Of a stretch of DNA of 64,000 nucleotides, positions 10,873 to 39,572 are shown piece by piece. The stretch lies in NCBI RefSeq assembly GCF_055900595.2, contig NZ_CM148325.1. One strand, given 5' to 3'. Every line of letters starts with the position of its first letter. The stretch's first letter is position 1. A program made the position numbers and the translations under genes. The notes beneath the pieces were generated by a model, which saw nothing but the letters and a program-made list of their open reading frames with translations, did no database searches and had not been told where the DNA came from.

Positions 10873-10909
10873 CTTTTTAGGTTAAAGTTCGGCAGATTAG
10901 AAAAGAATT

Positions 10910-11029: not shown

Positions 11030-11042
11030 CAAATAAAACAAA

Positions 11043-11074: not shown

Positions 11075-11210
11075 ATCTGTTGTTTGTCGGTGAACACTCT
11101 CCCGAGTAGGACAAATCCGCCGGGAGCGGATTTGAACGTTGCGAAGCAACGGCCCGGAGGGTGGCGGGCAGGACGCCCGCCATAAACTGCCAGACATCAA
11201 ATCAAGCGAA

Positions 11211-11237
11211 AGGCCATCCGAAAGGATGGCCTTTTTG
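11211..11237. terminator. rRNA operon terminator T2, probably also terminating convergent yhdZ
   Basis: AGGCCATCCGAAAGGATGGCCT hairpin followed by TTTTTGCTTTT; yhdZ ends about 20 nt further on. Confidence 0.8.
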
Positions 11238-11257
11238 CTTTTCGAACTTACATTCAA

Positions 11258-12016: not shown

Positions 12017-12023
12017 AGTGTCC

Positions 12024-13127
12024 TCAATGCGGTGTACGCCCGGTGTTAAAACGTTTTTCCAGATGTTGGCTATAACGTGACATGCTGAAACAGAAGATCC
12101 AGTAGATCAGCGCGGCGAAAACATACCCTTCCGTCGACATACCCAACCAGGCGGGATCAACGGTTGCCTGCTGAACGCTACTGAAAAGATCGAACAACCC
12201 GATGATGATCACCAGGCTGGTATCTTTGAAGAGTGCGATGATGGTATTTACCAGCCCAGGAATCACCAGCTTCAACGCCTGTGGCAGAATAACCAGCCCC
12301 TGGGTTTTCCAGTAACCCAACGCCAGCGACTCTGCCGCTTCATATTGCCCTTTAGGCAGCGCCTGTAATCCGCCTCGCACGACTTCCGCAACATATGCTG
12401 ACTGAAACAGGATCACGCCAACCAGCGCGCGGATCAATTTGTCGATACTGGTGCCTTCTGCCATAAACAACGGCAGCATGACCGAAGACATAAACAGAAC
12501 GGTAATCAGCGGTACACCGCGCCAGAACTCGATAAAAATGACCGATAAGATACGCACAATCGGCATATGGGAGCGGCGACCTAACGCCAGTAAGATCCCC
12601 CACGGCAGCGCCCCCGCAATCCCAACTGATGCAATAATTAAAGTGAGCGTCAGCCCGCCCCATTGCCTGGTTTCAACCCGTTCAAGACCAAGAAACCCGC
12701 CATACATCAGCCACCAGACAATCAGTGGGTAAATCACCGCCCAGACCGCAATATAGCGACCGCGATGCGGGAGTATTTTCCAGAACATTGGTGCGATAGA
12801 AACAAGGCCAATCAGTAATGCCAGGTTAATTCGCCAGCGTTGGTCGTGTGGGTAAAGCCCATACATAAACTGACCAAATCGTTCGTGGATGAAGACCCAA
12901 CAGGCACCTGCTTTTGTGCAGTCGGCACGCGTTGAGCCAACCCAGTTAGCCTGCAAAAATGCCCAGTTCAGCAATGGTGGGATCAGTTCCCACATCAACC
13001 ATATGCAGCCAATAGTCAGCAGGCTATTGCTCCAGCTGGAGAACAGATTTTTCCGCACCCACACCATCGCGCGGCTTGTGTTATGGCTCGCCGGGCGCGG
13101 GGGATGAGACAGCAATACTTTTGTCAT
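12024..13127 (-). CDS. yhdY: amino acid ABC transporter permease
   Basis: About 367 aa, hydrophobic, within the yhdWXYZ operon. Confidence 0.88.
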
Positions 13128-13136
13128 CATGACTCC

Positions 13137-14318
13137 TTAGCGTTCAACGATCGCGATGCGGCGGTTATAGATATTCATCAGCAGCGAGATAGTCAGGCTG
13201 ATAATCAGATAGACCGACATGGTCATGGCTATAGTCTCGATGGCTTGCCCCGTCTGGTTTAGTACGGTGCCAGCAAACAGCGAAACCATATCCGGATAGC
13301 CAATAGCGGCGGCAAGAGAGGAGTTTTTGACGATGTTGAGATACTGGCTGGTTAATGGAGGAATAATCACTCGCAGTGCCTGAGGAATAATGACCTGGCG
13401 TAGCGTAACCGGGTTGGGCAATCCCAGTGACCTGGCAGCTTCATGTTGACCATAAGGCACCGCCTGAATCCCGGCGCGGATAATCTCGGCGATAAATGCA
13501 GAGGTATAAACCGAAAGCGCCAGCGTTAAGGCTGCCAGTTCAGGAATTAAAACCATCCCGCCGCGGAAATTAAAACCTTGTAGGGCTGGAACATCCCAGT
13601 GCAGTGCCGCGCCAAAAAGCCATTGCGCCAGTAAAGGCAAGCCAATGATTAATCCAACGGCGAACGGCCAGGTTCGGCGCAGTTGTCCGGTCTTTATCTG
13701 GTGTTTTTTATTAAAGCGATATAGCCCAACAGAAAGGGCTATAGCCATAACAACAGCCAGGATAAATGCAAGGAACCCGTCTCCCAGCTGCGGCGACGGA
13801 ATATAAAGCCCACGATTGCTTAAAAAGGCCAGATCAAACGCACTCACTGCCTGGCGTGGTCCGGGCAAATTGCGCAACACGGCAAAGTACCAGAAGAAGA
13901 TTTGCAGTAGCGGCGGAATATTACGGAAGATCTCAATATAAATTGTGGAAAGCTTTCGTAGCAGCCAGTTATCCGAAAGTCGTGCCAGACCGATAAAGAA
14001 GCCCAGAACAGAAGCGAATACAATACACAATGCAGAAACCAGCAGCGTATTGAGTAAGCCAACAATGAAAACGCGTCCGTAGGTATCACCCTGCTGGTAA
14101 TCGATCAAATGCTGGACAATACCGAAGCCAGCGCCGCGATCCAGAAAGGCAAAACCCGAAGTAATGCCACGATTACTGAGATTCGTCACAGTGTTGTGAA
14201 ATAGCCAACCAACAATGCCGACAACAGCAACAACGGCAAGGATCTGGAATAACCAGGCGCGAACCGTAGGGTTGGCAAAGGAGAGTGAGCCTTTAACGGT
14301 TGAGCGGCGATGAGACAT
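13137..14318 (-). CDS. yhdX: amino acid ABC transporter permease
   Basis: About 393 aa from MSHRRSTVKG (the track ORF extends 6 codons upstream); multi-pass membrane protein. Confidence 0.88.
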   Translation of the reverse strand: MSHRRSTVKGSLSFANPTVRAWLFQILAVVAVVGIVGWLFHNTVTNLSNRGITSGFAFLDRGAGFGIVQHLIDYQQGDTYGRVFIVGLLNTLLVSALCIVFASVLGFFIGLARLSDNWLLRKLSTIYIEIFRNIPPLLQIFFWYFAVLRNLPGPRQAVSAFDLAFLSNRGLYIPSPQLGDGFLAFILAVVMAIALSVGLYRFNKKHQIKTGQLRRTWPFAVGLIIGLPLLAQWLFGAALHWDVPALQGFNFRGGMVLIPELAALTLALSVYTSAFIAEIIRAGIQAVPYGQHEAARSLGLPNPVTLRQVIIPQALRVIIPPLTSQYLNIVKNSSLAAAIGYPDMVSLFAGTVLNQTGQAIETIAMTMSVYLIISLTISLLMNIYNRRIAIVER

Positions 14319-14385
14319 AGAAACCTCGGAAAGCATAACGCTGAAGAGAGCGCCGCCGTAGCGACGCTCGTTACCTCACACCGAC

Positions 14386-15411
14386 TTAACGCACGGGCGG
14401 CGCGTACTGAATACCGCCGTTATTCCAGAGATTATTTTGCCCACGTTTAATCTTCAGGGGGCTTTCTGAACCTACGTTACGCTCAAAAATTTCCGAGTAA
14501 TTACCCACCTGTTTGATGATGTTGTAAGCCCATTTATTATCCAGCTTCAGATCTTTACCGTAATCGCCCTCTTTACCCAGCAGATGCGCCATATCAGGCG
14601 TTGCAGGATTAGCCGCTTTTTCATCAACGTTTTGCGAATTAACGCCCATCTCTTCAGCATTCAGCATGGCGAAAAGCGTCCAGCGCACTATAGAGAACCA
14701 TTCATCATCGCCACGACGAACTACCGGCCCAAGCGGTTCTTTAGAGATAACTTCCGGTAAAACAATCCATTCAGCTGGGTTGCTTAATTTGATGCGCAGG
14801 GCATACAGTTGTGATTGATCCGAGGCCAGCGTATCGCAGCGACCAGATTCCAGTGCCTTCGCGGATTCGTCAGAGCGATCGAAAGTCACTGGTGTGTACT
14901 TCATATTGTTTGCCTTGAAGTAATCGGCGACGTTGAGTTCGGTATCAGTACCCGCCTGAATACAGACTGTTGCGCCATCCAGTTCTTTCGCGCTTTTTAA
15001 TCCCGCTTTATCGTGCGTCAGGAAACCAATGCCGTCATAATAAGTGACGCCAGTAAATGCCATTCCCATACCGGCATCGCGAGAGGAAGTCCAGGTCGTA
15101 TTACGGGAGAGCAAATCCACCTCCCCTGACTGTAAAGCCGTGAAGCGTTCTTTTGCAGTGAGCGGGGTATATTTCACTTTCGTGTCGTCACTAAATACAG
15201 CTGCCGCAACACCACGACAAACATCTACATCAATACCTGAAAACTTACCGTCAGCATCGGCATAAGAGAACCCAGGTAATCCATCACTGATCCCGCATTG
15301 CACAAAACCTTTTTTCTGAACGGCATCAAGCGTCGCGCCAGCATGCGCCTGATTTGCAACGGCAAGCAGCACGCTGGCGGCAGCCAGTGTGGCTATCATC
15401 ATCTTTTTCAT
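14386..15411 (-). CDS. yhdW: periplasmic amino acid-binding protein
   Basis: 341 aa with N-terminal signal peptide (MKKMMIATLAAASVLLAVANQAHA); first gene of the yhdWXYZ operon. Confidence 0.9.
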   Translation of the reverse strand: MKKMMIATLAAASVLLAVANQAHAGATLDAVQKKGFVQCGISDGLPGFSYADADGKFSGIDVDVCRGVAAAVFSDDTKVKYTPLTAKERFTALQSGEVDLLSRNTTWTSSRDAGMGMAFTGVTYYDGIGFLTHDKAGLKSAKELDGATVCIQAGTDTELNVADYFKANNMKYTPVTFDRSDESAKALESGRCDTLASDQSQLYALRIKLSNPAEWIVLPEVISKEPLGPVVRRGDDEWFSIVRWTLFAMLNAEEMGVNSQNVDEKAANPATPDMAHLLGKEGDYGKDLKLDNKWAYNIIKQVGNYSEIFERNVGSESPLKIKRGQNNLWNNGGIQYAPPVR

Positions 15412-27169: not shown

Positions 27170-28180
27170 TCAGTGCTGCCGCAAAAAGTCTTCAATGTCA
27201 GTCAGTGAGGATACCCCTTCCATCGGACCTTGTCGCATTACGGCGAGCGCGCCGCTGGCATTTGCATATTGCAGCGCCTTGTGTGCCGGGATACCGGATA
27301 AGAAAAGAGTGACAAACGTTGCGCCAAAGCAGTCGCCTGCACCCGTTGGATCGATTATTTCGATATCGTGGCCTGCAACATGCTGGGCGTGTAATGTTCC
27401 GTTTTTAAGCTTGTAATAGCTGGCCCCACGCTGGGCGCGTTTTATCGCCACATGTTTTACGCCGCCGTGGAGAAGATCGCTAACAATCTGTTCTTCTGAC
27501 AGATTTTTGTGACGCGCGAAGAAAGGGAGTTCGCTTTCGCTGGGGATAAAAATATCCGTATATTCAATCAAATAATCGAGAGCCTGCGCCATTTCAGGAA
27601 TACTCAGCATCTCTTTGCGAATATTGGGATCGAAAGAAACGGTGCCGCCAGCCGATTTGATCGTCGTTATTGCTTTACGCATGACATCGATCATGCGAAA
27701 TGAGAACAATGATGAGCCCACAATATGCAGATGGTTACACTGTTTTAGCAGATCCTTATCAATGTGCTCGGCAGTAAACAAACCGCAGGCGCTGTTAGGG
27801 ATATTAAAGACGAAATCCCGCTGCTGGGGATTTTGATAACTCACGAATGCCGTACCTGTTACGGCATTGTTCATAACATGGATCCCATCGGTAATGACAC
27901 CTTCATGACGGAGGCGCTCTATAATGAGTCGGCCAAAATCATCATTACCAACACATCCGAAGAAGATGGCCCGATGGGACAGTTTTGCCACCTGAGCAGC
28001 AAAAATTGCTGGTGCACCGCTGGGAAATGGCCCGATAAACTCCCCAGGCTGAGTGAATTTTTGATGTGGGTTGCGGGACAAAAACTCGGCCAGCAATTCG
28101 CCCATAGCGCAGATAGTTATTGTCACAAAACCCCTCTCATTCCTGAAGCCTTTCGCGATTGGACCAGGTAAAGCACTCAT
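27170..28180 (-). CDS. PfkB-family carbohydrate kinase (island kinase A)
   Basis: 336-aa ORF; PfkB signature DPTGAGDCFG and the GG dipeptide region; paralogous to 33661-34623; true start may lie at an internal GTG or ATG 18-25 codons downstream (alignment with the paralog starts near TITICAMGELL). Confidence 0.85.
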   Translation of the reverse strand: MSALPGPIAKGFRNERGFVTITICAMGELLAEFLSRNPHQKFTQPGEFIGPFPSGAPAIFAAQVAKLSHRAIFFGCVGNDDFGRLIIERLRHEGVITDGIHVMNNAVTGTAFVSYQNPQQRDFVFNIPNSACGLFTAEHIDKDLLKQCNHLHIVGSSLFSFRMIDVMRKAITTIKSAGGTVSFDPNIRKEMLSIPEMAQALDYLIEYTDIFIPSESELPFFARHKNLSEEQIVSDLLHGGVKHVAIKRAQRGASYYKLKNGTLHAQHVAGHDIEIIDPTGAGDCFGATFVTLFLSGIPAHKALQYANASGALAVMRQGPMEGVSSLTDIEDFLRQH

Positions 28181-28967
28181 TACTGGTATAAAGGATAACG
28201 AAATCAGCCGACTGCAATTGTTGCTGATATTGTTCGTTAATGCTGCGGCTGACGATCACATTTTCTGCCTGATGCAAATGTCCAATGGCAGCCGTTGATG
28301 GCGCAGGATCGGCGGCAACGATAACTGTCTTATTCTGGGCATGATCGAAACAGAGCTGCCAGGCAGCGGCAAGTCTGGGAACGTTGATATTTAAAGTACC
28401 ATCAGCATCCAGATGGCTGATTTCCAGAATGCTGTGTGTAATGGTGAAATGCTGAAGTGCCTGTTCGAGCGGTTTTCCGGCCAGTGCGGTGTCGGGGCGC
28501 AGCATTTCACTGCCAGCCAGTATTATTTCGCCATCAATAAACTGATTTGCCAGCAGCGCATGTTCGGGATCGTTGGTGATCAGACGCAGTTTTTTCACTT
28601 CGCTGAGCAATGGAATGATCTTACGGCAGATTGTCCCATGTCCAAGAAATAGCGTGTCACGATCGCGAATTAACCGTGCGCAATGTCGTGCTATTTCCAT
28701 TTGTTGTGCCAGAGACAATGGCGCGATCGGTTGTATCGCTTCTGGTTCAGAGGAGAGGGGGGTCGCAATAGCACCGCCAAATGATCGCTTTAAATATCCC
28801 TGTTGCTCCAGATAACTGAGATCGCCGCGGATCGTCACGCCAGAGACACCAAGTTGCGCAGATAAGTCATCAACTTTGATTTCACCCTGGGCGGCAACAA
28901 TTTCTGCAATTTTTAATCTGCGTTTCAGTAGGTTAGACGATTTTCTCGGCACGTTAACACTCTTCAT
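28137..28967 (-). CDS. DeoR-family transcriptional regulator
   Basis: 276 aa; N-terminal DeoR-type winged HTH (RRLKIAEIVAAQGEIKVDDLSAQLGVSGVTIRGDLSYLEQQGYL), C-terminal sugar-phosphate-binding-like domain; upstream of kinase A and divergent from the aldolase-transporter operon. Confidence 0.85.
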   Translation of the reverse strand: MKSVNVPRKSSNLLKRRLKIAEIVAAQGEIKVDDLSAQLGVSGVTIRGDLSYLEQQGYLKRSFGGAIATPLSSEPEAIQPIAPLSLAQQMEIARHCARLIRDRDTLFLGHGTICRKIIPLLSEVKKLRLITNDPEHALLANQFIDGEIILAGSEMLRPDTALAGKPLEQALQHFTITHSILEISHLDADGTLNINVPRLAAAWQLCFDHAQNKTVIVAADPAPSTAAIGHLHQAENVIVSRSINEQYQQQLQSADFVILYTSNECFTWSNRERLQE

Positions 28968-29281
28968 TGGCCTTTAATGCGTAACACTATAGCCCCTTGT
29001 ATTTTTCTTTGAAAGTTATCCTTCAATAATATCGACAATTCGAAAAGGAAATCATGGGCCAGAAATCGCAACGAAAATAGCTTAATGCATTGAAAAATAG
29101 ATGAATTAATTCATATTTATGCAGAGGTGTTATTGGTTTCACTTGCAAAGTGAAAAACAAATTAAGTTATTTTTTGTAAGTTATTTTGATGATATTCGAC
29201 ATGTATCACGCTTTTTACCGCTTTTGCTGTGCTAGTTTGCTTTCAAAATGAAAGTGAAGATTCTCTTTCTTCATTTTGTAA

Positions 29282-30163
<882 letters not shown>

Positions 30164-30198
30164 GACGTTGTACCCTACAAAAACAATGAGGATTGTTT

Positions 30199-31089
30199 AT
30201 GAAAAATATTAAATTACTTGGTTCCGCTATGATGGTGAGCCTGGCATTGTTCTCGCAAAGTTCATTGGCAAAAGAGTATAAAATTGGAGCTTCATTATTA
30301 ACACAGCAACACCCTTTTTATATCGACCTCGCAAATGCAATGAAAGAAGAGGCGAAAAAAGACAATGTCAATTTAAGTGTCTCTATTGCCAATCAGGATT
30401 TAAACAAACAGCTTTCTGATGTTGAGGATTTTATTACTAAAAAGGTAGATGCCATTATTATCTCTCCGGTCGATTCGAAAGGTGTCCAGGCAGCGATAAT
30501 TAAAGCCGATAAGGCTGGTATTCCCGTTATCACCGTTGACGTTGCCGCGGAAGGCGTTCCGGTCGTATCGCATGTTGCGACCGATAATTACGCGGGTGGC
30601 GTTGAAGCTGGTAAGTTAATGGGCAAACTTTTGAATGGTAAAGGTACTGTAGCCATTATTTCTTATCCTGCACTACAATCGGTGGTTGCACGCGTTGATG
30701 GCTTTAAGAAAGGATTAAGCGATACGCCGGATATTAAAATTGTTGCTGAACAGCCGGGTATAACGCGGGCTGAAGCGTTAACGACTGCGCAAAACATTAT
30801 GCAGGCCAACGCCAACCTGAATGGTCTGTTTGGCTTTGGTGATGATGCGGCGCTGGCGGCGGTTATAGCGGCGAAATCTGCGCATAACGACAACATCAAA
30901 ATCATTGGTTTTGATGGTATGAAAGAAGCGCGAGATGCCGTTGATAGTGAAAAAACGTTTGCGGCCGTGATTCGGCAATATCCCGATCAAATGGGTGCTA
31001 AAGCCATTGATGCCGCTGTTGATCACCTCAATGGTAAACCGGTAGAGAAAATGATCCCGGTACAACCCGGCGTTTATACAGGTAAATAA
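30199..31089 (+). CDS. periplasmic sugar-binding protein of ABC transporter (RbsB-like)
   Basis: ATG at 30199 with GAGGA Shine-Dalgarno; signal peptide MKNIKLLGSAMMVSLALFSQSSLA then KEYKIGAS...; the track ORF starts 2 codons upstream at an alternative codon. Confidence 0.85.
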   Translation: MKNIKLLGSAMMVSLALFSQSSLAKEYKIGASLLTQQHPFYIDLANAMKEEAKKDNVNLSVSIANQDLNKQLSDVEDFITKKVDAIIISPVDSKGVQAAIIKADKAGIPVITVDVAAEGVPVVSHVATDNYAGGVEAGKLMGKLLNGKGTVAIISYPALQSVVARVDGFKKGLSDTPDIKIVAEQPGITRAEALTTAQNIMQANANLNGLFGFGDDAALAAVIAAKSAHNDNIKIIGFDGMKEARDAVDSEKTFAAVIRQYPDQMGAKAIDAAVDHLNGKPVEKMIPVQPGVYTGK

Positions 31090-31104
31090 TAAACATCTTC
31101 ATTT

Positions 31105-31135
31105 CACAACAAAACGTTATCGACGTTTTGTTGTG
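31105..31135 (+). other. intercistronic stem-loop between binding-protein and ATPase genes
   Basis: 13-bp perfect inverted repeat CACAACAAAACGT / ACGTTTTGTTGTG with a 5-nt loop, read directly. Confidence 0.7.
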
Positions 31136-31149
31136 ACACCGAGGTCATT

Positions 31150-32649
31150 ATGACGGATGTTATTCTTGATGTTTCGCATATTGCGAAGACATTTGGTCAT
31201 GTTCAGGCATTAAAAGATATTACACTCTCTTTACGTAAAGGGCGGGTACATACTTTATTAGGTGAGAATGGTGCCGGTAAATCGACATTAATGAAAATAT
31301 TGGCCGGTGTTTATCCGCCAACCCAGGGAACAATAAAACTACGTGGTGAAACTATCACAATTAATAATCCGCAGCATTCACGTCAGTTAGGGATTGCTAT
31401 TATTTTTCAGGAACTGAGCCTGAGTAATAATATGACAGTGGCGGAAAATATTTATGCCAATAATGAACCGCGACGTTTTGGCATTATTAACGATAAAAAA
31501 ATGCTCGCAGATTGCCAGAATCTCCTCGCGGAACTGGGCATCCCACTGGATCCGCTGGAAATGGTCGGCAATATGTCGATGGCACATAGGCAACTGGTAG
31601 AAATTGCCAAAGCCTTAAGCTATGCAGCAGATGTCGTGATTATGGATGAACCGACATCTTCGCTAAGTGATAATGAAGCAGAGATTCTGTTTAACATTAT
31701 TGAGAAATTAAAGCAGCGAGGTTGTGCGGTTATTTATATCTCTCATCGCATGGATGAAATTATGCGGATTTCAGATGATATTTCGGTGATCCGCGACGGT
31801 GAGTATATCGCTACGCATGAAAAGAAAAACAGTGATATCCAGCATTTGATTGCCCAAATGGTTGGTCGGGAAATGAAAAATATTTGGCCAGCACGTCTTG
31901 GGGAAAAGCCGGATGAAAATGTTCCTGCAAAACTGGAAGTAAAAAACCTTTCCCATCCTTCGCTTTTTAAAGAGGTCAGTTTCGCTGTGCGTCCGGGGGA
32001 AGTCCTCGGATTTTTTGGCCTGGTGGGGGCCGGGCGTTCCGATGTGATGAAGGCGCTATTTGGCCTCGTTTCGTATCACGGGACTGTGTTGATTGATGGT
32101 AAGGAAGTCAGGATCGCTAATCCCAAACAGGCTATTGATCATGGCATTGCTTTTGTGACCGAAAACCGCAAGGAAGAAGGGTTAGTGCTGATGCACGACG
32201 TCAATATGAACACGCACCATGTGGCGTTTCAATATAACGCTTCGCGGATGGGACTCATCAATCACCGACAAGAAGAGGCGAAGACGCTGCAATCTATTGC
32301 CAGAATGAACACTAAAGTGAGTTCTGTACATCAGGCAGTGGGAGCGCTGAGCGGCGGTAATCAACAGAAAATCGTGTTATCCAAGTGGCTGGAGAAAACT
32401 CCGCGTATTTTATTGCTCGATGAGCCAACGCGCGGAGTGGATGTCGGCGCAAAATTTGAAATCTATAACGTGATACGTCAACTGGCTGCGGCAGGGACAG
32501 CAATTATTCTGGTGTCCTCTGAACTGCCAGAGGTCATGGCACTTAGCGATCGTCTGGTGGTAATGCGTAATAAAACGATTGCCGATATTTATTCATGTGA
32601 AAATTTAACGCAGACACAGGTAATGACCGCTGCAACAGGAGTACGTTAA
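31150..32649 (+). CDS. sugar ABC transporter ATP-binding protein with tandem ABC domains (CUT2 type, RbsA-like)
   Basis: 499 aa; Walker A GENGAGKST (N-domain) and GLVGAGRS (C-domain), signature LSGGNQQK, Walker B LLLDEPTRGVD. Confidence 0.9.
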   Translation: MTDVILDVSHIAKTFGHVQALKDITLSLRKGRVHTLLGENGAGKSTLMKILAGVYPPTQGTIKLRGETITINNPQHSRQLGIAIIFQELSLSNNMTVAENIYANNEPRRFGIINDKKMLADCQNLLAELGIPLDPLEMVGNMSMAHRQLVEIAKALSYAADVVIMDEPTSSLSDNEAEILFNIIEKLKQRGCAVIYISHRMDEIMRISDDISVIRDGEYIATHEKKNSDIQHLIAQMVGREMKNIWPARLGEKPDENVPAKLEVKNLSHPSLFKEVSFAVRPGEVLGFFGLVGAGRSDVMKALFGLVSYHGTVLIDGKEVRIANPKQAIDHGIAFVTENRKEEGLVLMHDVNMNTHHVAFQYNASRMGLINHRQEEAKTLQSIARMNTKVSSVHQAVGALSGGNQQKIVLSKWLEKTPRILLLDEPTRGVDVGAKFEIYNVIRQLAAAGTAIILVSSELPEVMALSDRLVVMRNKTIADIYSCENLTQTQVMTAATGVR

Positions 32650-33639
32650 ATGACAGAGAAAACTCTTGCCAGTCCGAAACCTTCGGAAATTCCCATTGCA
32701 AATAATTTTAAAAAAGTCTTCAGGCAATATGGCGGTATCCTCAGTGGAATGGTGGTGTTAATCATTCTGTTCAGTCTTATTAATGACAGTTTTTTTACTG
32801 CCAATAACATTACTAATATTATTCTTCAGGTTTCGATAATTGCAATTACCGCCTATGGAATGACTTATGTACTTTTGCTTGGCGATATTGATTTATCAGT
32901 CGGTTCAACCATTGCATTGATTGGCACATTTGCTGCGCTTGGGGCTTCATGGGGAATTCCATTTATTTTATTGGTCCCATTATCCATTATTGCAGCCCTG
33001 GCTCTGGGGATGATAAATGGTGGCTTGACGGCTATAGCGGGTATCCCTTCGTTTATTGTCACCGTTGCTACAATGGGGATCTTCCGTGGTATCGCTTATA
33101 TAGTGACCGATGGTATGCCCATCATGATTAAAGATGATGCCTTTCTGGCGCTGGGGAATGGAGAATTTCTCTATATACCTATTCCTATCTGGATATTAAT
33201 CATCTTATTGCTGATTAACCACTTCATTCTTACTAAAACAACCTTTGGACGAAAAATTTATATCACTGGTGGTAATAAAGAAGCGGCAGTTTATTCAGGG
33301 ATAAATGTCACCCGCTTGAAAATTAAAGTCTTTATGATTACTGCAGTGCTGGCAGGTATCAGCGGGATGATCCTCGCCTCACGCCTCTATTCCGGGCAAC
33401 CGAATTCCGCGTTGAGCTACGAACTGGATGCTATTGCCGCGGCTGTACTGGGAGGCACCAGCCTGAACGGCGGCTATGGAACGGTGGTGGGGACGGTAAT
33501 CGGGGCATTAACCATCGGCGTTATTAATAATGGCATGAACTTAATGAACGTTCCCTATTTCTATCAGATGGTGGTTAAAGGATTAGTCATTCTTGTAGCC
33601 GTTTATTTTGACGTAAGAAATAAAAGAAAACGTAGCTAA
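32650..33639 (+). CDS. sugar ABC transporter permease (RbsC-like)
   Basis: 329-aa hydrophobic multi-pass protein; the ATG directly abuts the ATPase stop (TAAATG). Confidence 0.88.
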   Translation: MTEKTLASPKPSEIPIANNFKKVFRQYGGILSGMVVLIILFSLINDSFFTANNITNIILQVSIIAITAYGMTYVLLLGDIDLSVGSTIALIGTFAALGASWGIPFILLVPLSIIAALALGMINGGLTAIAGIPSFIVTVATMGIFRGIAYIVTDGMPIMIKDDAFLALGNGEFLYIPIPIWILIILLLINHFILTKTTFGRKIYITGGNKEAAVYSGINVTRLKIKVFMITAVLAGISGMILASRLYSGQPNSALSYELDAIAAAVLGGTSLNGGYGTVVGTVIGALTIGVINNGMNLMNVPYFYQMVVKGLVILVAVYFDVRNKRKRS

Positions 33640-33660
33640 TCATTTCAAGGAATTAATTAT

Positions 33661-34623
33661 ATGAGTAAGGTCTTCACAATTGGAGAAATTCTGGTTGAAA
33701 TTATGGCGAGTAAAATCGGCCAGCCATTTGATCAACCAGGTATCTGGAACGGCCCTTATCCCAGTGGTGCGCCCGCTATTTTTATCGACCAGGTGACACG
33801 TCTTGGTGTTCCGTGCGGCATCATTAGCTGTGTGGGGAATGATGGCTTTGGTGATATTAATATACATCGTCTGGCTGCTGATGGTGTGGATATCAGGGGG
33901 ATTTCAGTCTTACCTCTGGAAGCCACCGGGAGTGCCTTTGTTACTTATCATAACTCTGGCGATCGCGATTTTATTTTTAATATCAAGAATGCCGCTTGCG
34001 GTAAATTATCGGCGCAGCATGTTGATGAAAATATACTGAAAGACTGTACCCATTTTCATATTATGGGCTCATCCCTGTTTTCATTTCATATGGTAGACGC
34101 AGTAAAAAAAGCAGTAACCATCGTTAAAGCAAATGGTGGCGTTATTTCTTTCGACCCGAATATTCGTAAAGAGATGCTCGATATTCCAGAAATGCGTGAC
34201 GCCCTCCACTTTGTTCTTGAGTTAACAGATATCTATATGCCCAGCGAGGGAGAAGTGTTGCTCTTGTCGCCACACTCGACACCGGAGCGTGCAATCGCTG
34301 GTTTTCTTGAAGAAGGTGTTAAAGAGGTGATTGTGAAGCGCGGCAATCAAGGTGCCAGTTACTACTCCGCGAATGAGCAGTTTCATGTTGAGAGCTATCC
34401 GGTGGAAGAAGTTGACCCGACCGGTGCGGGAGACTGCTTTGGTGGCGCGTGGATTGCCTGCCGCCAGCTAGGGTTTGACGCCCATCGGGCATTACAATAT
34501 GCCAACGCCTGCGGTGCACTGGCGGTAACCCGACGTGGCCCAATGGAGGGAACGTCTCGCCTTGCGGAAATCGAAGCGTTCATCCAGCGCCATGACATGT
34601 CCATTCGGGAAGCAGCACAATGA
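33661..34623 (+). CDS. PfkB-family carbohydrate kinase (island kinase B)
   Basis: 320 aa; DPTGAGDCFG signature; shares long identical stretches with kinase A (PYPSGAPAIF, GSSLFSF, SFDPNIRKEML, ALQYANA, GPMEG). Confidence 0.9.
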   Translation: MSKVFTIGEILVEIMASKIGQPFDQPGIWNGPYPSGAPAIFIDQVTRLGVPCGIISCVGNDGFGDINIHRLAADGVDIRGISVLPLEATGSAFVTYHNSGDRDFIFNIKNAACGKLSAQHVDENILKDCTHFHIMGSSLFSFHMVDAVKKAVTIVKANGGVISFDPNIRKEMLDIPEMRDALHFVLELTDIYMPSEGEVLLLSPHSTPERAIAGFLEEGVKEVIVKRGNQGASYYSANEQFHVESYPVEEVDPTGAGDCFGGAWIACRQLGFDAHRALQYANACGALAVTRRGPMEGTSRLAEIEAFIQRHDMSIREAAQ

Positions 34624-35666
34624 AAAACGAAATTTGGTCGTGGATTGGCGATCTCTCGCAGGTTGCCGGAATTAAACACTATGAGTTACGCAGTGGCAGA
34701 TCAAAGGGGACAGAAGCGTTTGATGTCCGTACTGGTGCGGGATTGGCATTTACGGTGGTAAAAGATCGCGCGCTGGATATTGCATGGGCCAGCTACAAGG
34801 ACACTGCGCTCTCTTTTATCACCCCCAACGGCATTGTCGCCCCCGCTTTTTTTGAGTCTCAGGGCAACGGGTTTTTACGTAGCTTCTACGCGGGGTTACT
34901 GACTACCTGCGGACTTAGCTACATTGGCACGCCCTGTGAGGATAACGGAGAAACGCTGGGGTTACACGGGCGTTTGGCTGCGACTCCAGCAGAAGAGGTG
35001 GGGTATCGCACAGAACGGACCGACGACGGCATTGAATTTGTCATCAATGGCAAAGTACGGGAAACACGATTGTTCGGTGAAAATCTGACGCTGGAAAGGA
35101 CCATTCGCTGCCGTTATGGCGAAAATGTGCTGCGCATTGAAGACAAGGTGACTAATCATGGTTTCACCCGCCAGCCGCTGCAAATTCTTTATCACTTTAA
35201 TTACGGCTGGCCTTTATTATCGCCACAGGCAGAAATCTTGCTGTCGGCTAAAAGCGTAACGCCACGAACCCCGCATGCGGCGGAAGGGTTAACCAGTCAT
35301 CTGGAGATTTGTACCCCACAGCCCAGTTTTGACGAGCAGGTTTACTATCTCACGTTGAATAGCGACAGTCAGGGGATGAGTAAAGTTGCGCTGGTGAACG
35401 CCGAACTGGGGTGGGGAATTTACGAGAAATTCGACACCATGCAGCTACCCAACTTTATCCAGTGGAAAAATTTAGGCGCGGGTGAATATGTTATGGGGCT
35501 GGAGGTCAGCAATAGTTTTCCTGACGGTCGTGATAAAGAACGAGCGCAGGGGCGTCTGCCCTTTATAGAGCCAGGGGAAACAAAGACATACTGCTTTGAG
35601 CTGGGAATTGTTGATGGCGATGCTGAAATTAGCGCGTTGAAAGCGGAAATTGCAAGCTACCGTTAG
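34620..35666 (+). CDS. conserved protein of unknown function; possibly an aldose-epimerase-like fold (DUF4432-type), not verified
   Basis: 348-aa ORF whose ATG overlaps the kinase B stop (ATGA); no recognisable catalytic motif by eye; the family assignment is a guess from memory. Confidence 0.6.
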   Translation: MKNEIWSWIGDLSQVAGIKHYELRSGRSKGTEAFDVRTGAGLAFTVVKDRALDIAWASYKDTALSFITPNGIVAPAFFESQGNGFLRSFYAGLLTTCGLSYIGTPCEDNGETLGLHGRLAATPAEEVGYRTERTDDGIEFVINGKVRETRLFGENLTLERTIRCRYGENVLRIEDKVTNHGFTRQPLQILYHFNYGWPLLSPQAEILLSAKSVTPRTPHAAEGLTSHLEICTPQPSFDEQVYYLTLNSDSQGMSKVALVNAELGWGIYEKFDTMQLPNFIQWKNLGAGEYVMGLEVSNSFPDGRDKERAQGRLPFIEPGETKTYCFELGIVDGDAEISALKAEIASYR

Positions 35667-35682
35667 CTAACGGCAATAAAAA

Positions 35683-35709
35683 CGCCGGGCAGCGTTAACA
35701 GGCCCGGCG
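35683..35709. terminator. hairpin between the convergent island operon and accC; likely bidirectional terminator
   Basis: CGCCGGGC / GCCCGGCG inverted repeat, an A-tract on one side and TT on the other. Confidence 0.6.
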
Positions 35710-35757
35710 TTGATTACGTTCTTTGCTAAGCGCGATGAAAACACCGCGCGTCACAAA

Positions 35758-37107
35758 TTATTTTTCCTGAAGACCGAGTTTTTTCTCCAGATAGTGGATG
35801 TTAGTGCCACCATGCTGGAAGTTCTCGTCATTCATGATGCGGATCTGCAGATCAACGTTGGTTTTGATACCGTCGATGATCAGCTCCTGCAGCGCATTCT
35901 TCATGCGGGCAATCGCCACGTCACGGTTTTCACCGTAGCAAATCAGCTTACCGATCATTGAGTCATAGTACGGCGGTACGGTGTAGCCCGCGTAGATATG
36001 AGACTCCCAACGCACGCCAAAACCGCCAGGTGCATGGAAACGGGTGATTTTGCCCGGGCTTGGCAGGAAGGTGTTAGGATCCTCGGCGTTAATACGGCAT
36101 TCCACCGCATGGCCGCGAACGTGAACTTCTTCTTGCTTGATCGACAGCGGCTGACCAGCAGCAATACGCAGTTGTTCTTTGATCAGGTCAACACCGGTGA
36201 TCATTTCAGTAACCGGGTGTTCTACCTGAATACGGGTGTTCATTTCGATGAAATAGAACTCGCCGTTTTCGAACAGAAACTCGAAAGTACCTGCACCGCG
36301 ATAGCCGATATCAACACACGCTTTAGCACAACGTTCACCGATGTAGCGACGCAGTTCCGGGGTAATGCCCGGTGCTGGCGCTTCTTCGACCACTTTCTGG
36401 TGACGACGCTGCATAGAGCAGTCACGTTCCGCCAGATAGATAGCGTTGCCCTGACCGTCCGCCAGTACCTGGATCTCGACGTGGCGAGGATTTTCCAGGT
36501 ATTTCTCCATGTAAACCATGTCGTTATTGAAAGCGGCTTTCGCTTCCGCACGGGTCATGGAGATGGATTGCGCCAGTTCAGCGTCGCCGCGTACTACACG
36601 CATACCACGACCGCCGCCGCCGCCGGAGGCTTTGATAATCACCGGGTAACCAATGCGTTTTGCAATGGCGCGGTTTTTATCCATATCGTCGCCCAGCGGG
36701 CCGTCAGAACCTGGTACGCAAGGAACGCCCGCTTTTTTCATCGCCGCGATTGCTGATACTTTATCGCCCATCAGGCGAATGGTTTCGGCTTTCGGGCCGA
36801 TGAAGATAAAGCCGGAGCGTTCAACCTGCTCGGCAAAATTGGCGTTCTCGGAGAGGAAGCCGTAACCCGGATGGATTGCTACTGCGCCGGTGATTTCAGC
36901 GGCGCTGATGATTGCCGGGATGTTCAGATAACTTTTTACTGACGGAGCAGGGCCGATACAGACCGTTTCGTCTGCCAGTAATACGTGTTTTAGATCGCGA
37001 TCCGCACTGGAGTGCACAGCGACAGTCTTGATGCCCAGTTCTTTACAGGCACGAAGAATACGCAATGCAATCTCGCCGCGGTTGGCAATAACAATTTTAT
37101 CCAGCAT
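35758..37107 (-). CDS. accC: biotin carboxylase subunit of acetyl-CoA carboxylase
   Basis: 449 aa from [33 protein letters not shown]; the track ORF carries a 13-codon upstream extension. Confidence 0.97.
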
Positions 37108-37117
37108 GTTCGCCTCG

Positions 37118-37588
37118 TTACTCGATGACGACCAGCGGCTCGTCAAATTCTACCGGTTGTCCACTTTCGACCAGAATTGCTTTCACGGTACCGGATTTGT
37201 CCGCTTCGATCTGGTTCATCATTTTCATGGCTTCAACGATGCACAGGGTATCGCCCACGTTGACTTTCTGACCCACTTCGATGAACGCTTTTGCGTCCGG
37301 GCTTGGGGTGCGGTAGAAAGTACCAACCATCGGGGAACGTACGATGTGACCACTGATTTCCGCTGCTGCTGGCGCTTCCATGGAAGGAACGGTCGCCGGA
37401 GCGGCTGCGTTAGATTGAGCTGGCTGCTGCATCATTGGTGCAGCGTAAGCTTGTTGCATCACAGGGAAACTTGCGGCAGGAGCTGCACGGCTGATGCGTA
37501 CTGACTCTTCGCCTTCGGAGATTTCCAGTTCGGAGATGCCTGATTCTTCAACCAGCTCGATCAGTTTTTTAATCTTACGAATATCCAT
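37118..37588 (-). CDS. accB: biotin carboxyl carrier protein
   Basis: 156 aa; Ala/Pro-rich linker and biotinylation motif EAMKM. Confidence 0.97.
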
Positions 37589-38597
37589 GAGTGGGTTCCG
37601 TACTCTTTGTTTAGTGTGATTGTGACAGGCGTTTCACCGCCGTCTGTAAAGCGTATGCCCCGACAGCTGTATGCATAGCGATAAATTCCAGCAGGCCGGG
37701 ACGCCGGTCTATTTTGCCCCAGAGTGTCAATGTTTAGACTTGACGGACATTGTGCAGCGATCTGCTGCTATCCTCCGGCAAAAAACAAAATATACCTTCG
37801 TTGCGCCAATGTCACCTTTTCCGCAGCGCAAAAACTGCGTCAGGGAGGACGAGGTCGCACATTATAACGATTTCGTAGCAATTGGCAGCTAAATACTGGT
37901 CTTATCAGGGAAGATAATCAACAGCTAACATGTAAATAACCTTCAACACCGTGTAATTTGCAACAAGCCGCACAATTCACGAAATTAGCGCTATCGTCGA
38001 CGGAACTTCTTATAACGTAAGGCTAAAAGCTGTAAAGCCAGCTCTGCGAAGATGAGGGGCTGCAATGAGATGATCCTCACAGACCACAAATAATGTAGGG
38101 TTGCCAGGATCGCGACAAGATAGACGACATTACGCAGCGGTTGCTGGGGATTACTCAATTTTCACGGCATCGTCCGGATAGACGTCAATGCTAAAGCACG
38201 CAAAATCAACAAACTGACAATGCTCAGCATCAAATAGTTTTGAGTGGTTAATTTATAATCTAATAAAATCAGATTATTCACCCCTGGGATCAGAGTTAAG
38301 GTACAGATTAAGCGTAGCGTCACCCAGGCAAAGCGCCTTAAACCTAACAGACGACGGGACGTATCAATAATGACTATTTAGTGGAGTATCAAGGGTGTTT
38401 TCCACCGTTTGGTGACCCGTATCAATGCGCATCAATTTATGGTCAGTCGAAATCATGACTTTCCAGTTTGGATTATGTTGTACAACTTTCTGACCAAGGT
38501 GTTCGACGAAAGCTGTCCGGCTAACCGCTTTTCCCGTTAATCGATGGAATAATGATTTCAAAATGAGTTCCCTCTCTTATTAATCCTTGCTAAATGG

Positions 38598-39572
38598 TTA
38601 ATTAATCTTCACCAGCGTGCGACCCTGGATCTGGTTATTAATGATGGCTTCGGCAAACTTTGGTGCTTCTGCCAGAGATATCTCTTTTGCTGCCTGGGTA
38701 TAGAATGATTCCGGTAAATCGGCGACCAGTCGCTGCCAGGCTTGTGCGCGGCGTGCTGGTGGCGTCATCACTGAATCCACCCCTTGTAAACGGACATTAC
38801 GCAGAATAAATGGCATGACCGTTGTTGGCAGAGTAAAACCACCCGCCAGACCACAAGCTGCCACGCAGCCTCCGTAATTCATTTGCGCCAGCACTTTCGC
38901 CAGCACTTTGTCGCCAACGGTGTCAATTGCCCCAGCCCAGAGTTGTTTTTCCAGAGGACGGGATTCGGCAAACTCATCGCGAGGGAGAATACGGCTGGCA
39001 CCTAAACTTTTCAGATATTCATGGGTACTTTCGCGACCGGAAACGGCAACGACCTGATAACCCAACTTATGCAGCAGCGCCACGGCGGTACTGCCGACGC
39101 CACCACTGGCACCCGTTACGACAATCTCGCCGTCCTGCGGGCGAACACCGGCATCTTCCAGCGCCATCACACACAGCATGGCGGTAAAACCGGCAGTACC
39201 GATAATCATTGCTTTACGCGCGTCCAGCCCTTGCGGCATGGCAACCAGCCAGTCACCTTTCACTCGCGCCTGCTCCGCCAGCCCACCCCAGTGGTTTTCA
39301 CCAACGCCCCAGCCAGTGAGTAATACGTCCTGACCGGCATGAAAACGCGGATCTTCGCTGGTGCGTACAGTTCCGGCAAAATCGATCCCAGGAATCATCG
39401 GAAAATTACGGATGATTTTTCCCTTACCGGTAATTGCCAGCGCATCTTTGTAGTTCAGGCTCGACCAGTGAACATCAACCGTGACATCGCCCTCCGGCAG
39501 GCGACTTTCGTCCAGAGTCTGTACCGATGCGAGAGTTTTGCCGTCCTGCTGTTCTAAAAGTAACGCCTGCAT
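38598..39572 (-). CDS. acuI: acrylyl-CoA reductase AcuI (YhdH), MDR-family NADPH-dependent oxidoreductase
   Basis: 324 aa; nucleotide-binding motif TGASGGVG. Confidence 0.9.
   Translation of the reverse strand: MQALLLEQQDGKTLASVQTLDESRLPEGDVTVDVHWSSLNYKDALAITGKGKIIRNFPMIPGIDFAGTVRTSEDPRFHAGQDVLLTGWGVGENHWGGLAEQARVKGDWLVAMPQGLDARKAMIIGTAGFTAMLCVMALEDAGVRPQDGEIVVTGASGGVGSTAVALLHKLGYQVVAVSGRESTHEYLKSLGASRILPRDEFAESRPLEKQLWAGAIDTVGDKVLAKVLAQMNYGGCVAACGLAGGFTLPTTVMPFILRNVRLQGVDSVMTPPARRAQAWQRLVADLPESFYTQAAKEISLAEAPKFAEAIINNQIQGRTLVKIN

What the first reader, a model, noticed from the sequence alone, without database searches (positions are those of the whole stretch)
30199..33639. AT-rich codon usage of the island transporter genes suggests horizontal origin, with no mobility genes
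By eye the binding-protein, ATPase and permease genes are much richer in A/T codons (AAA, ATT, TTA, AAT) than the flanking core genes accC and panF. This fits acquisition from a lower-GC donor. No integrase, transposase, tRNA target or long direct repeat is visible at either border, so the insertion is either old or arrived by homologous recombination of flanking core DNA.
Basis: seen in the sequence. Interest (0 to 1): 0.4.

Follow-up and report, generated by a model that had tools for sequence, protein, structure and literature searches.

The report
Known E. coli D-tagatose gene cluster
The AT-rich transporter genes belong to the already published D-tagatose utilisation cluster that about a quarter of E. 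coli strains carry between accC and yhdT; the AT-richness is real but modest, and the cluster looks like an old, mobility-gene-free alternative version of this site shared with several other enteric genera, not a fresh import.

Summary
SBP, ATPase and permease genes (30199-33639) have GC 0.42-0.45 and GC3 0.40-0.43, against 0.58 (accC) and 0.65 (panF). This is the lowest-GC 3.4-kb stretch of the window. There is no tRNA, border repeat, integrase or transposase.

The deviation is modest: an undisputed core block (def..yrdA) deviates from other core genes just as much.

The 8.7-kb insert (27078-35757) is the published 'EcN tag cluster' for D-tagatose uptake and catabolism (Ha et al. 2022, PMC9720028). 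That paper already reports the accC/yhdT site, a -4.9% GC offset and a horizontal-transfer reading.

New here:
- E. coli is cleanly two-state: 4004 genomes have a 108-bp spacer and 1419 have the full cluster.
- Cluster alleles differ between lineages as much as the flanking core genes do.
- The cluster sits at the same site, with homologous junctions, in Trabulsiella, Klebsiella spallanzanii, Superficieibacter and two 'Enterobacter' species; Serratia sp. H1w has it between yhdT and accC too, but with no detectable junction homology.
- The empty spacer is likewise conserved in Salmonella, Klebsiella, Enterobacter and Cronobacter.
- Cluster GC3 tracks each host (r=0.99).

So the cluster is old and probably moves by flanking homologous recombination, not as a recent import from a low-GC donor. 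It is already known and of low interest.

The parts
26835..27077 (-). yhdT (core flank). It starts with GTG preceded by AGGAGG in this island-bearing form; the K-12 empty form starts with ATG.
   Evidence: Annotation of the 99.9%-identical genome mapped onto the window; sequence read directly.
27078..27169 (.). Left junction spacer of the 'full' form (92 bp). It holds a candidate yhdT-panF promoter (TAGAAT on the - strand) and is conserved across genera.
   Evidence: Local alignment with Trabulsiella, K. spallanzanii and Enterobacter sp. BIGb0383 gives z=22-28, with 0/300 shuffles reaching the score. It is not alignable with the K-12 spacer (z=1.2). The promoter assignment is an inference from the sequence.
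27170..28105 (-). PfkB-family sugar kinase, a paralogue (about 50% identity) of the tagatose kinase. It corresponds to ECOLIN_RS18705; its role is unknown.
   Evidence: Pfam PF00294. NCBIfam TagKinase 343 bits against a cut-off of 420. 98.1% identical to the EcN protein. The paper found it dispensable for the plasmid-conferred phenotype.
28137..28967 (-). DeoR/GlpR-family transcription regulator (ECOLIN_RS18700 orthologue).
   Evidence: Pfam HTH_DeoR and DeoRC. 99.3% identical to EcN.
28968..29308 (.). 341-bp divergent control region between the regulator operon and the six-gene tag operon. It is 37-39% GC and carries repeated TTTCA/TGAAA motifs that may be operators.
   Evidence: Composition and sequence. 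The 341-bp spacing is the same as in EcN. Operator function is inferred, not tested.
29309..30163 (+). Class II tagatose-1,6-bisphosphate aldolase (GatY-like; ECOLIN_RS18695 orthologue).
   Evidence: NCBIfam TIGR01858 473 bits against a cut-off of 444; PRK12737 521 against 383. Pfam PF01116. 97.2% identical to EcN.
30199..31089 (+). Periplasmic sugar-binding protein of the ABC transporter (first gene of the finding).
   Evidence: Pfam Peripla_BP_4. Best NCBIfam hit is RbsB, below its cut-off. 99.3% identical to EcN RS18690. GC3 0.397.
31150..32649 (+). Fused two-domain ABC ATPase.
   Evidence: Two ABC_tran stretches. XylG/AraG/RbsA-like, below their cut-offs. 99.4% identical to EcN RS18685. 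GC3 0.428.
32650..33639 (+). ABC transporter permease (last gene of the finding).
   Evidence: Pfam BPD_transp_2. 99.1% identical to EcN RS18680. GC 0.419, GC1 0.448, CAI 0.267.
33661..34623 (+). D-tagatose kinase TagK (orthologue of ECOLIN_RS18675, whose deletion abolishes growth on tagatose in EcN).
   Evidence: 99.4% identical to EcN. NCBIfam TagKinase 414 bits against a cut-off of 420. PDB 3IQ0/3K9E at E=3e-218. Genetics from PMC9720028.
34620..35666 (+). [quoted passage not shown] Its function is untested. It is missing from the cluster in Trabulsiella, Serratia sp. H1w and Enterobacter sp. BIGb0383.
   Evidence: Pfam PF14486, E=4e-104. PDB 3TY1 'hypothetical aldose 1-epimerase', E=1e-32. 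Cross-genus presence and absence.
35667..35757 (.). Right junction spacer of the 'full' form (91 bp), with a GC-rich hairpin (about 35681-35711) that can terminate both the tag operon and accC.
   Evidence: Sequence. Terminator-like hit on the - strand at 35696-35681. Homologous with Superficieibacter (z=14), Enterobacter sp. ENT03 (z=10.7) and BIGb0383 (z=8.2). Not alignable with the K-12 spacer.
35758..37107 (-). accC (core flank, highly expressed type: CAI 0.63).

Best explanation
Positions 27078-35757 are the published E. coli D-tagatose utilisation cluster ('EcN tag cluster').

How it works (known from the literature): the finding's three genes are its ABC importer (binding protein, fused ATPase, permease). 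Imported D-tagatose is phosphorylated by TagK to tagatose-6-phosphate. The chromosomal PfkA converts that to tagatose-1,6-bisphosphate. The cluster's class II aldolase cleaves it to DHAP and G3P. A divergently transcribed DeoR-family regulator probably controls the operon.

Composition (shown here): the AT-rich codon usage is real but moderate.

Origin (inferred here): the cluster is not a mobile-element island. It is one of two old alternative versions of the accC-yhdT interval. The 'full' version is 8.7 kb and the 'empty' version is a 108-bp terminator-promoter spacer. Each has its own junction sequences conserved across several enteric genera. Lineages gain or lose the cluster by homologous recombination in the flanking core genes (allelic replacement). 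This explains the absence of integrase, tRNA and repeats, and the clean two-state pattern in E. coli.

Cause of the low GC3 (inferred here): it is largely a host-tracking property of these weakly codon-adapted genes, one of which encodes a membrane protein. It is not a fresh fingerprint of a low-GC donor.
For: Identity:
- Eight genes in the same order and orientation, with the same 341-bp divergent spacer as EcN, between accC and yhdT.
- 96.9% nucleotide identity and 96.8-99.4% protein identity to EcN.
- Domains fit the pathway.
- The pathway was tested genetically in EcN and K-12 (PMC9720028).

Composition.

No mobility apparatus:
-.
- No enteric-type copy on 72,556 plasmids; only 60-80% matches to rhizobial megaplasmids.

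Two states in E. coli: 4004 genomes carry the K-12-type spacer at 98% identity or more, 1419 carry the full cluster, and only 3 others match the island query, at under 80% coverage.

Old within E. coli: island divergence equals flank divergence in every lineage pair (for example window-EcN 2.58% vs 2.68%; four-fold sites 8.4% vs 9.3%).

Same site elsewhere: between yhdT and accC in Superficieibacter, two Trabulsiella species, K. spallanzanii, Enterobacter sp. BIGb0383 and Serratia sp. H1w. In Enterobacter sp. ENT03 the contig ends inside the cluster, so only the accC side is seen.

Junctions:
- 'Full' junctions are homologous across genera (z up to 28).
- The 'empty' spacer is homologous in Salmonella, K. 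variicola, E. asburiae and Cronobacter (z 15-39).

Trees and distances:
- Flank trees follow taxonomy, not island status.
- Island and flank protein distances correlate (r=0.87). There is no anomalously close inter-genus pair.
- Cluster GC3 against host flank GC3 gives r=0.99.
Against: - Homologous-recombination exchange is inferred from the pattern. No recombination tract linking island status to the flanks was seen between genera. This fits old events, but is also what pure vertical descent would give.
- The island and flank trees disagree at deep nodes: K. spallanzanii groups with Trabulsiella in the island tree. The trees are small neighbour-joining trees without support values.
- Only five E. 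coli lineages and about ten other species were compared. The species search used peptide patterns, so counts are lower bounds.
- The r=0.99 rests on phylogenetically non-independent taxa.
- The island is still the lowest-GC stretch of the window, so an ancient lower-GC origin with incomplete amelioration cannot be excluded.
- Growth on tagatose was not shown for this strain.
Confidence: 0.8

Rival explanations
1. Recent horizontal import from a lower-GC donor. The AT-rich codon usage is the un-ameliorated signature of that donor. This is the first reader's main reading and the published 'recent horizontal gene transfer' reading.
For: - The island is 4.6 GC points below the rest of the window and is its lowest-GC stretch.
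- GC3, CAI and Nc are shifted.
- It is present in only 26% of E. coli genomes, concentrated in B2 and F (PMC9720028).
Against: - Island alleles are as diverged between E. coli lineages as the core genes are, so the cluster is not recent.
- No low-GC relative was found; the next relatives after Enterobacterales are high-GC rhizobia and Acetobacteraceae at about 61% identity.
- The same cluster in higher-GC hosts has a proportionally higher GC3.
- A core block deviates equally.
Confidence: 0.07
2. Strict vertical inheritance. The cluster was at accC-yhdT in the ancestor of Enterobacteriaceae (perhaps Enterobacterales) and was lost independently by deletion in most lineages, including most E. coli.
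For: - Same site and homologous junctions in several genera.
- SBP identity falls with taxonomic distance: 94 > 91 > 90 > 87 > 79%.
- Island and flank distances correlate.
- Flanks are host-typical.
Against: - Independent deletions should leave different scars. Instead the empty spacer is one conserved 105-110-bp sequence in E. coli, Salmonella, Klebsiella, Enterobacter and Cronobacter.
- Within E. coli, only 3 of 5426 genomes match the island at under 80% coverage.
- Dozens of precise losses would be needed.
- The divergent Escherichia genome E69 has an island about 10% diverged, against 3-7% for its flanks.
Confidence: 0.1
3. The composition difference is ordinary within-genome heterogeneity and says nothing about origin. 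On this view the genes are AT-rich only because they are weakly expressed and one encodes a membrane protein.
For: - The core block def..yrdA shows equal heterogeneity.
- Island CAI values (0.27-0.38) lie inside the core range of 0.25-0.63.
- Permease GC1 of 0.448 reflects its amino-acid content.
- The offset persists in every host.
Against: - All eight adjacent genes are shifted in the same direction.
- The stretch is the window's GC minimum.
- The segment is demonstrably accessory.
- So composition and accessory status coincide, which is unlikely to be pure coincidence.
Confidence: 0.3

Closest known systems
EcN tag cluster (D-tagatose utilisation cluster of E. coli Nissle 1917 / phylogroup B2; Ha et al., iScience 2022, PMC9720028). 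It is also listed as genomic region 'GR 23 accC..yhdT' of APEC strain BEN2908 (PMC12928451).
   Same: - Same site, the same eight genes in the same order, and the same 341-bp divergent spacer.
- 96.9% nucleotide and 96.8-99.4% protein identity.
- The GC deficit (-4.6 points here, -4.9 in the paper) and the absence from K-12 are as published.
   Different: - The window carries a rare allele: only 8 of 1422 records are 99% identical or more, and most are 96.9-98%.
- It has an unusually divergent aldolase-SBP segment.
- The paper reads the cluster as 'recent' horizontal transfer and does not discuss cross-genus synteny. The data here point to an old two-form locus.
Sinorhizobium meliloti / Agrobacterium tumefaciens tagatose ABC-transporter cluster (SBP, ATPase, permease, TagK and a Tag-6-P epimerase)
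   Same: Four shared genes (SBP, ATPase, permease, TagK) in the same order. Rhizobium, Agrobacterium and Acidisoma loci show 56-62% identity for the transporter proteins and about 50% for TagK. Weak DNA matches to Sinorhizobium megaplasmids.
   Different: - The rhizobial pathway converts Tag-6-P to fructose-6-P by an epimerase. The enteric cluster has a class II aldolase and a DUF4432 protein instead (PMC9720028).
- The rhizobial copies are high-GC (GC3 0.62-0.87) and are often on megaplasmids.
Classical genomic / pathogenicity islands (tRNA-associated, integrase-bearing, flanked by direct repeats)
   Same: Strain-variable presence, below-average GC and a metabolic fitness function.
   Different: No tRNA, integrase, transposase or flanking repeats. 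The cluster replaces a spacer between two core genes, and its junctions are conserved across genera.
gatYZABCD / kbaYZ (aga) PTS-dependent galactitol and N-acetylgalactosamine pathways of E. coli
   Same: Both end in a class II tagatose-1,6-bisphosphate aldolase. The cluster's aldolase matches the GatY family model and is 63.7% identical to GatY according to the paper.
   Different: Uptake here is by an ABC transporter followed by a kinase, not by a PTS. There is no GatZ/KbaZ partner in the cluster.

Membership tests
EcN tag cluster (ABC-type D-tagatose utilisation cluster of E. coli) | Located between accC and yhdT, replacing the K-12 spacer | tested here: met
EcN tag cluster (ABC-type D-tagatose utilisation cluster of E. 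coli) | Six-gene operon (aldolase, SBP, ATPase, permease, TagK, aldose-1-epimerase-family protein) plus a divergent DeoR regulator and second kinase | tested here: met
   Gene order and orientation are identical to the E. coli Nissle 1917 locus L006. Domains confirmed.
EcN tag cluster (ABC-type D-tagatose utilisation cluster of E. coli) | Orthology to the experimentally tested EcN genes | tested here: met
   96.8-99.4% protein identity without gaps for all eight genes. 96.9% DNA identity over 8651 bp.
EcN tag cluster (ABC-type D-tagatose utilisation cluster of E. coli) | Confers growth on D-tagatose as sole carbon source | not testable with these tools
   Shown for EcN and for K-12, B and W strains carrying the operon on a plasmid (PMC9720028). 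Not shown for this strain.
NCBIfam NF049991 tagatose kinase (equivalog) | Whole-protein score at or above the curated cut-off (420 bits) | tested here: not met
   Kinase 33661-34623 scores 414.2 bits and kinase 27170-28105 scores 343.4 bits. The first misses by 6 bits, yet it is 99.4% identical to the EcN gene whose deletion abolishes growth. The model is therefore slightly too strict for this clade.
Carbohydrate-uptake ABC transporter of the ribose/xylose/arabinose type (one SBP, one fused double ATPase, one permease) | Peripla_BP_4 binding protein, roughly 500-aa ATPase with two ABC domains, BPD_transp_2 permease | tested here: met
   No equivalog cut-off for ribose, xylose, arabinose or allose is reached, so the transporter is a distinct specificity within that type.
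Classical mobile genomic island | Integrase or transposase gene | tested here: not met
   All eight ORFs have metabolic, transport or regulator domains only. The spacers of 92, 341 and 91 bp leave no room for another gene.
Classical mobile genomic island | Insertion next to a tRNA/tmRNA gene with flanking direct repeats | tested here: not met
   No tRNA in 20000-42000. There are no repeats at the borders; the longest families are 14-22 nt at 71-100% identity and lie away from the junctions.
Classical mobile genomic island | Atypical composition and patchy strain distribution | tested here: met
   -4.6 GC points. Present in 26% of complete E. coli genomes.

The most novel reading that the evidence does not exclude
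The accC-yhdT interval may be a long-lived two-form locus across Enterobacteriaceae. The 'full' form carries the tagatose cluster and the 'empty' form is a 108-bp spacer. Each has junctions conserved across genera. The forms would be exchanged within and occasionally between species purely by homologous recombination in flanking core genes. On this reading the published 'recent horizontal transfer into B2' is wrong, and the low GC3 is a stable, host-tracking property of the genes rather than a donor signature.
Probability: 0.5. Interest if true: 0.3.

Novelty: already known. Interest (0 to 1): 0.15.

Why it matters
The cluster itself matters because it lets B2/F-type E. coli, which include many extraintestinal pathogens and adherent-invasive strains, grow on the sweetener D-tagatose. 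That point is already published.

What this re-analysis adds is small:
- Low GC alone was not a reliable sign of recent foreign origin here.
- The cluster appears to be an old alternative allele of a core interval shared by several enteric genera.
- This is a clean example of accessory genes moving without any mobile element.

These points refine the published evolutionary reading. They open no new question.

Tried and rejected
- Deletion or insertion scars. The K-12 108-bp spacer was aligned to the two island-end spacers. No significant similarity was found (z=1.2 and 0.6). Only a weak shared core remains around the putative -10 box (GTAsAAT..CCCG.TTTCT).
- Border repeats and tRNA: none.
- Rfam families in 26500-38700: none at gathering thresholds.
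- Plasmid vehicles. No enteric-type copy was found; there were only 60-80% matches to rhizobial megaplasmids and unrelated 80-90% partial hits.
- Promoter and terminator consensus scans. Counts were no higher than in shuffles (16 vs 15.8; 15 vs 10.6), so they are used only to note the hairpin at the accC end.
- Co-transferred flanks. I expected island-bearing genera to share them, but proximal and distal flank trees follow taxonomy, so no inter-genus recombination tract could be shown.
- A suspected SBP indel against EcN. I suspected this when the SBP comparison with EcN, O26 and P15-25 returned no value. At protein level there is no gap, so it was an artefact of my full-length, gap-free BLAST filter.
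- The idea that the divergent aldolase-SBP segment came from the E69-like lineage. It is rejected, because E69 is 11-14% diverged there.


Full report
**What the window is.** The window is an E. coli chromosome segment. It runs def..rrnD..acrEF..fis-dusB-prmA-panF-yhdT-[insert]-accC-accB-acuI-csrD-mreBCD..mdh..zapE. It is 99.9% identical to strain Z0117EC0005 over the insert and flanks.

In K-12, accC and yhdT are separated by a 108-bp spacer. In the window that whole spacer is replaced by 8680 bp (27078-35757). Similarity resumes exactly at the accC stop codon and at the yhdT start codon, which is ATG in K-12 and GTG after an AGGAGG in the window.

The insert holds eight genes:
- a PfkB kinase (27170-28105, - strand)
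- a DeoR regulator (28137-28967, - strand)
- a class II tagatose-bisphosphate aldolase (29309-30163)
- a periplasmic binding protein (30199-31089)
- a fused ABC ATPase (31150-32649)
- a permease (32650-33639)
- a second PfkB kinase (33661-34623)
- a DUF4432 / aldose-1-epimerase-family protein (34620-35666)

**Checking the observation.** I computed per-gene statistics for 54 intact genes of the window. CAI weights came from 29 ribosomal-protein, tuf and fusA genes of the near-identical genome.
- The three transporter genes have GC 0.44/0.45/0.42, GC3 0.40/0.43/0.43 and CAI 0.38/0.32/0.27.
- accC has GC3 0.58 and CAI 0.63. panF has GC3 0.65 and CAI 0.37.
- The core genes have mean GC3 0.530 (sd 0.060).
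- All eight island genes together differ from core: GC3 p=0.0016, CAI p=0.008, Nc p=0.0002.

Per 1000 codons, transporter against core: ATT 65 vs 30, TTA 26 vs 13, AAT 37 vs 18, AAA 50 vs 31.5. The Lys AAA/AAG ratio is unchanged (0.81 vs 0.78), so the AAA excess reflects amino-acid content.

The island is 46.1% GC against 50.7% for the rest of the window. The transporter stretch, at 43.6%, is the lowest-GC 3.4-kb stretch of the window; the next lowest outside the island is 45.2%.

It is only moderate, for three reasons:
- accC and panF are GC3-rich comparators.
- Island CAI values lie inside the core range.
- The undisputed core block def..yrdA (GC3 0.42-0.47) is as heterogeneous against the other core genes as the island is (chi2 161 vs 163, df 41).

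**Checking the negative statement.** There is no tRNA or tmRNA within 20000-42000. There are no direct or inverted repeats at the borders. No integrase or transposase domain is present in any ORF, and the three spacers (92, 341 and 91 bp) leave no room for another gene. No Rfam family reaches threshold. No enteric-type copy exists in the plasmid collection.

**What it is.** The insert is the 'EcN tag cluster' described by Ha et al. (iScience 2022, PMC9720028).
- That paper describes the same accC/yhdT site, an 8.5-kb region, eight genes in two divergent units separated by 341 bp, and absence from K-12.
- The window's proteins are 96.8-99.4% identical to those of E. coli Nissle 1917 (EcN).
- The DNA is 96.9% identical.

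The paper showed the following:
- The six-gene operon is required for growth of EcN on D-tagatose.
- The operon is sufficient to confer that growth on K-12, B and W strains.
- Deleting the kinase orthologous to 33661-34623 abolishes growth.
- Host PfkA supplies the Tag-6-P to Tag-1,6-BP step.

The mechanism of the finding's three genes is therefore known. They form the ABC importer that feeds TagK, then PfkA, then the class II aldolase, yielding DHAP and G3P.

The regulator, the second kinase and the DUF4432 protein remain untested. TagK has a solved structure (3IQ0/3K9E), and the DUF4432 protein resembles 3TY1.

The paper already reports a -4.9% GC offset for the enteric clusters and concludes horizontal transfer. 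The region is also listed as 'GR 23 accC..yhdT' in a 2026 APEC genome paper. The finding is thus already known.

**Distribution in E. coli.** Of 5426 complete genomes, 1419 carry at least 80% of the island. Another 4004 carry the K-12-type spacer at 98% identity or more. Only 3 further genomes match the island query, at under 80% coverage. The locus is therefore two-state.

Most island copies are 96.9-98% identical to the window. Only 8 records are 99% identical or more, so the window carries a rare allele.

**How old is it in E. coli?** I compared the window with EcN (B2), O26:H11 (B1), MS1718 and P15-25, gene by gene.
- Pooled island divergence is 1.85-2.58% (four-fold sites 6.0-10.1%).
- Pooled flanking-core divergence in the same pairs is 1.86-2.68% (6.5-9.3%).

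The island alleles are therefore as old as the core diversity of the species. A recent sweep into B2 would give near-identical islands.

A sliding-window comparison shows internal mosaicism. The aldolase-SBP segment (about 29500-31500) is roughly 6% diverged from all four other alleles.

**Other genera.** I scanned one genome per GTDB species with the SBP as query, followed by tblastn of island and flank proteins. The cluster lies between yhdT and accC in:
- Superficieibacter electus
- Trabulsiella odontotermitis (two strains) and T. guamensis
- Klebsiella spallanzanii
- Enterobacter sp. BIGb0383
- Serratia sp. H1w

It is next to accC in Enterobacter sp. ENT03, where the contig ends. It is also present in a divergent 'E. 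coli' species representative, E69. Budvicia diplopodorum has it, with no accC, yhdT, panF or prmA found within the 20.9-kb locus.

Gene content varies:
- The DUF4432 gene is absent in Trabulsiella, Serratia and BIGb0383.
- The second kinase is absent in BIGb0383.
- The aldolase is absent in K. spallanzanii.

**The junctions.**
- The 92-bp yhdT-side spacer of the window aligns with those of Trabulsiella, K. spallanzanii and BIGb0383 (z=22-28; 0/300 shuffles reach the score).
- The accC-side spacer aligns with Superficieibacter, ENT03 and BIGb0383 (z=8-14).
- Serratia's left spacer shows no similarity (z=0.2), and its right junction was not compared.
- Conversely, the empty spacer of K-12 is conserved in Salmonella enterica, Klebsiella variicola, Enterobacter asburiae and Cronobacter dublinensis. 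It is 105-110 bp in each and has the same terminator and the same 'GTACAAT-CCCGCTTTCTTCA' promoter-like core (z=15-39).
- The full and empty junctions are not alignable with each other beyond a weak match at that core.

So both forms are old and each has a single origin. Both occur within one genus (Klebsiella) and within one species (E. coli).

**What this implies.**
- Independent deletions cannot regenerate the same empty spacer, so pure vertical descent with many losses is unlikely.
- Independent insertions without a recombinase cannot regenerate the same junctions. The full form must therefore spread, or be replaced, as an allele through homologous recombination in the flanking core genes.

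I could not show the recombination tracts. Trees of accC (proximal and distal parts), yhdT, panF and prmA group taxa by taxonomy, not by island status.

Island and flank protein distances correlate (r=0.87), with ratios of 1.5-2.9 between genera and no anomalously close inter-genus pair. Sampled inter-genus events, if any, are therefore old.

In E69 the island is about 10% diverged from E. coli alleles, while its flanks are 3-7% diverged. This fits a deeper coalescence of the island than of its more freely recombining flanks.

**Composition revisited.** Across eleven genomes, GC3 of the transporter genes follows GC3 of the local flanks (r=0.99). It ranges from 0.42 in E. coli to 0.66 in Serratia sp. 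H1w, and is always 0.08-0.16 lower. The taxa are not independent, but the pattern is what long residence in each host predicts. It is not what a shared recent low-GC donor predicts.

The nearest relatives outside Enterobacterales are high-GC alpha-proteobacteria. The AT-richness is therefore best read as a persistent property of weakly codon-adapted genes, one encoding a membrane protein, possibly on top of a very old foreign origin. It is not evidence for a recent lower-GC donor.

**Verdict.**
- Observation: confirmed, with a moderate effect size.
- Interpretation: partly supported. 'Accessory, no mobile element, old and/or exchanged by flanking recombination' holds. 'Codon usage indicates a lower-GC donor' does not.
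- Novelty: the object is a published, functionally characterised cluster, so it is already known.
- What is added: the clean two-state pattern, conserved full and empty junctions across genera, island divergence equal to core divergence, and host-tracking GC3. These modestly correct the published 'recent transfer' reading.

Noticed in passing
window 37589-38597 (between accB and acuI): This roughly 1-kb low-GC non-coding gap holds gene remnants. There are the last 16 codons of aroQ (about 37611-37658), an msrQ/yedZ-like pseudogene fragment (about 38006-38359, 56% identical to Salmonella residues 76-193), and the first 58 codons of an 831-bp gene that is intact in O26:H11 and MS1718 (about 38388-38561). 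Salmonella, Klebsiella, Enterobacter and Cronobacter have an intact msrQ-like gene here; the last three also have aroQ, and Salmonella also shows msrP.
   Followed up: partly
window 29500-31500 (aldolase 3' half, SBP, start of ATPase): This segment is about 4-7% diverged from the EcN, O26 and P15-25 island alleles (from MS1718 only over roughly 30000-31000), against 1-3% for the rest of the island. EcN and O26 differ by only about 1% there. It looks like an internal recombination import from an unsampled allele class. It is not from E69, which is 11-14% diverged there.
   Followed up: partly
L010 (E. coli strain E69, CP089930.1) 6176-14850: This separate GTDB species representative, labelled E. 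coli, carries the cluster at the same site. Its island is about 5-15% diverged in nucleotides from all E. coli alleles, while its flanks are only about 3-7% diverged (and up to 8% in panF). Its lineage (possibly a cryptic clade) was not identified.
   Followed up: no
window 11258-13127 (yhdZ, yhdY): These two genes are only 94.6% and 98.0% identical to the otherwise 99.9-100% identical genome Z0117EC0005. This looks like a local recombination patch next to rrnD. Several genes downstream (acuI, yhdP, tldD, degQ at 97-98%) show the same mosaic pattern.
   Followed up: no
window 27075-27100: In island-bearing genomes yhdT starts with GTG, eight bases after a strong AGGAGG. In the K-12 empty form it starts with ATG after GGGACAAAAA. 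An in-frame upstream ATG at 27095 makes mechanical ORF callers extend yhdT to 86 aa.
   Followed up: partly
window 28968-29308: The 341-bp divergent control region is 37-39% GC and contains several TTTCA(N)TGAAA-like repeats, for example ggtttcacttgcaaagtgaaaaac and ctttcaaaatgaaagtgaag. These are plausible DeoR-type operators and have not been tested.
   Followed up: no
window 31089-31151: An imperfect 29-nt inverted repeat (76% complementary, 5-nt loop) fills the SBP-ATPase intercistronic gap. It may be an mRNA hairpin that sets the binding-protein to membrane-component expression ratio, as in other ABC operons.
   Followed up: no
window 104-5067 (def, dprA, smg, yrdD, tsaC, aroE, yrdB, yrdA): This block of universally conserved core genes has GC3 of only 0.42-0.47. 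Its synonymous codon usage is as far from the other core genes as the island's is. It is a useful warning against reading GC3 alone as foreign origin.
   Followed up: partly
window 33661-34623: The orthologue of the experimentally validated tagatose kinase scores 414.2 bits against NCBIfam NF049991 'tagatose kinase', just under its curated cut-off of 420. This explains why RefSeq annotates it only as 'sugar kinase'.
   Followed up: no
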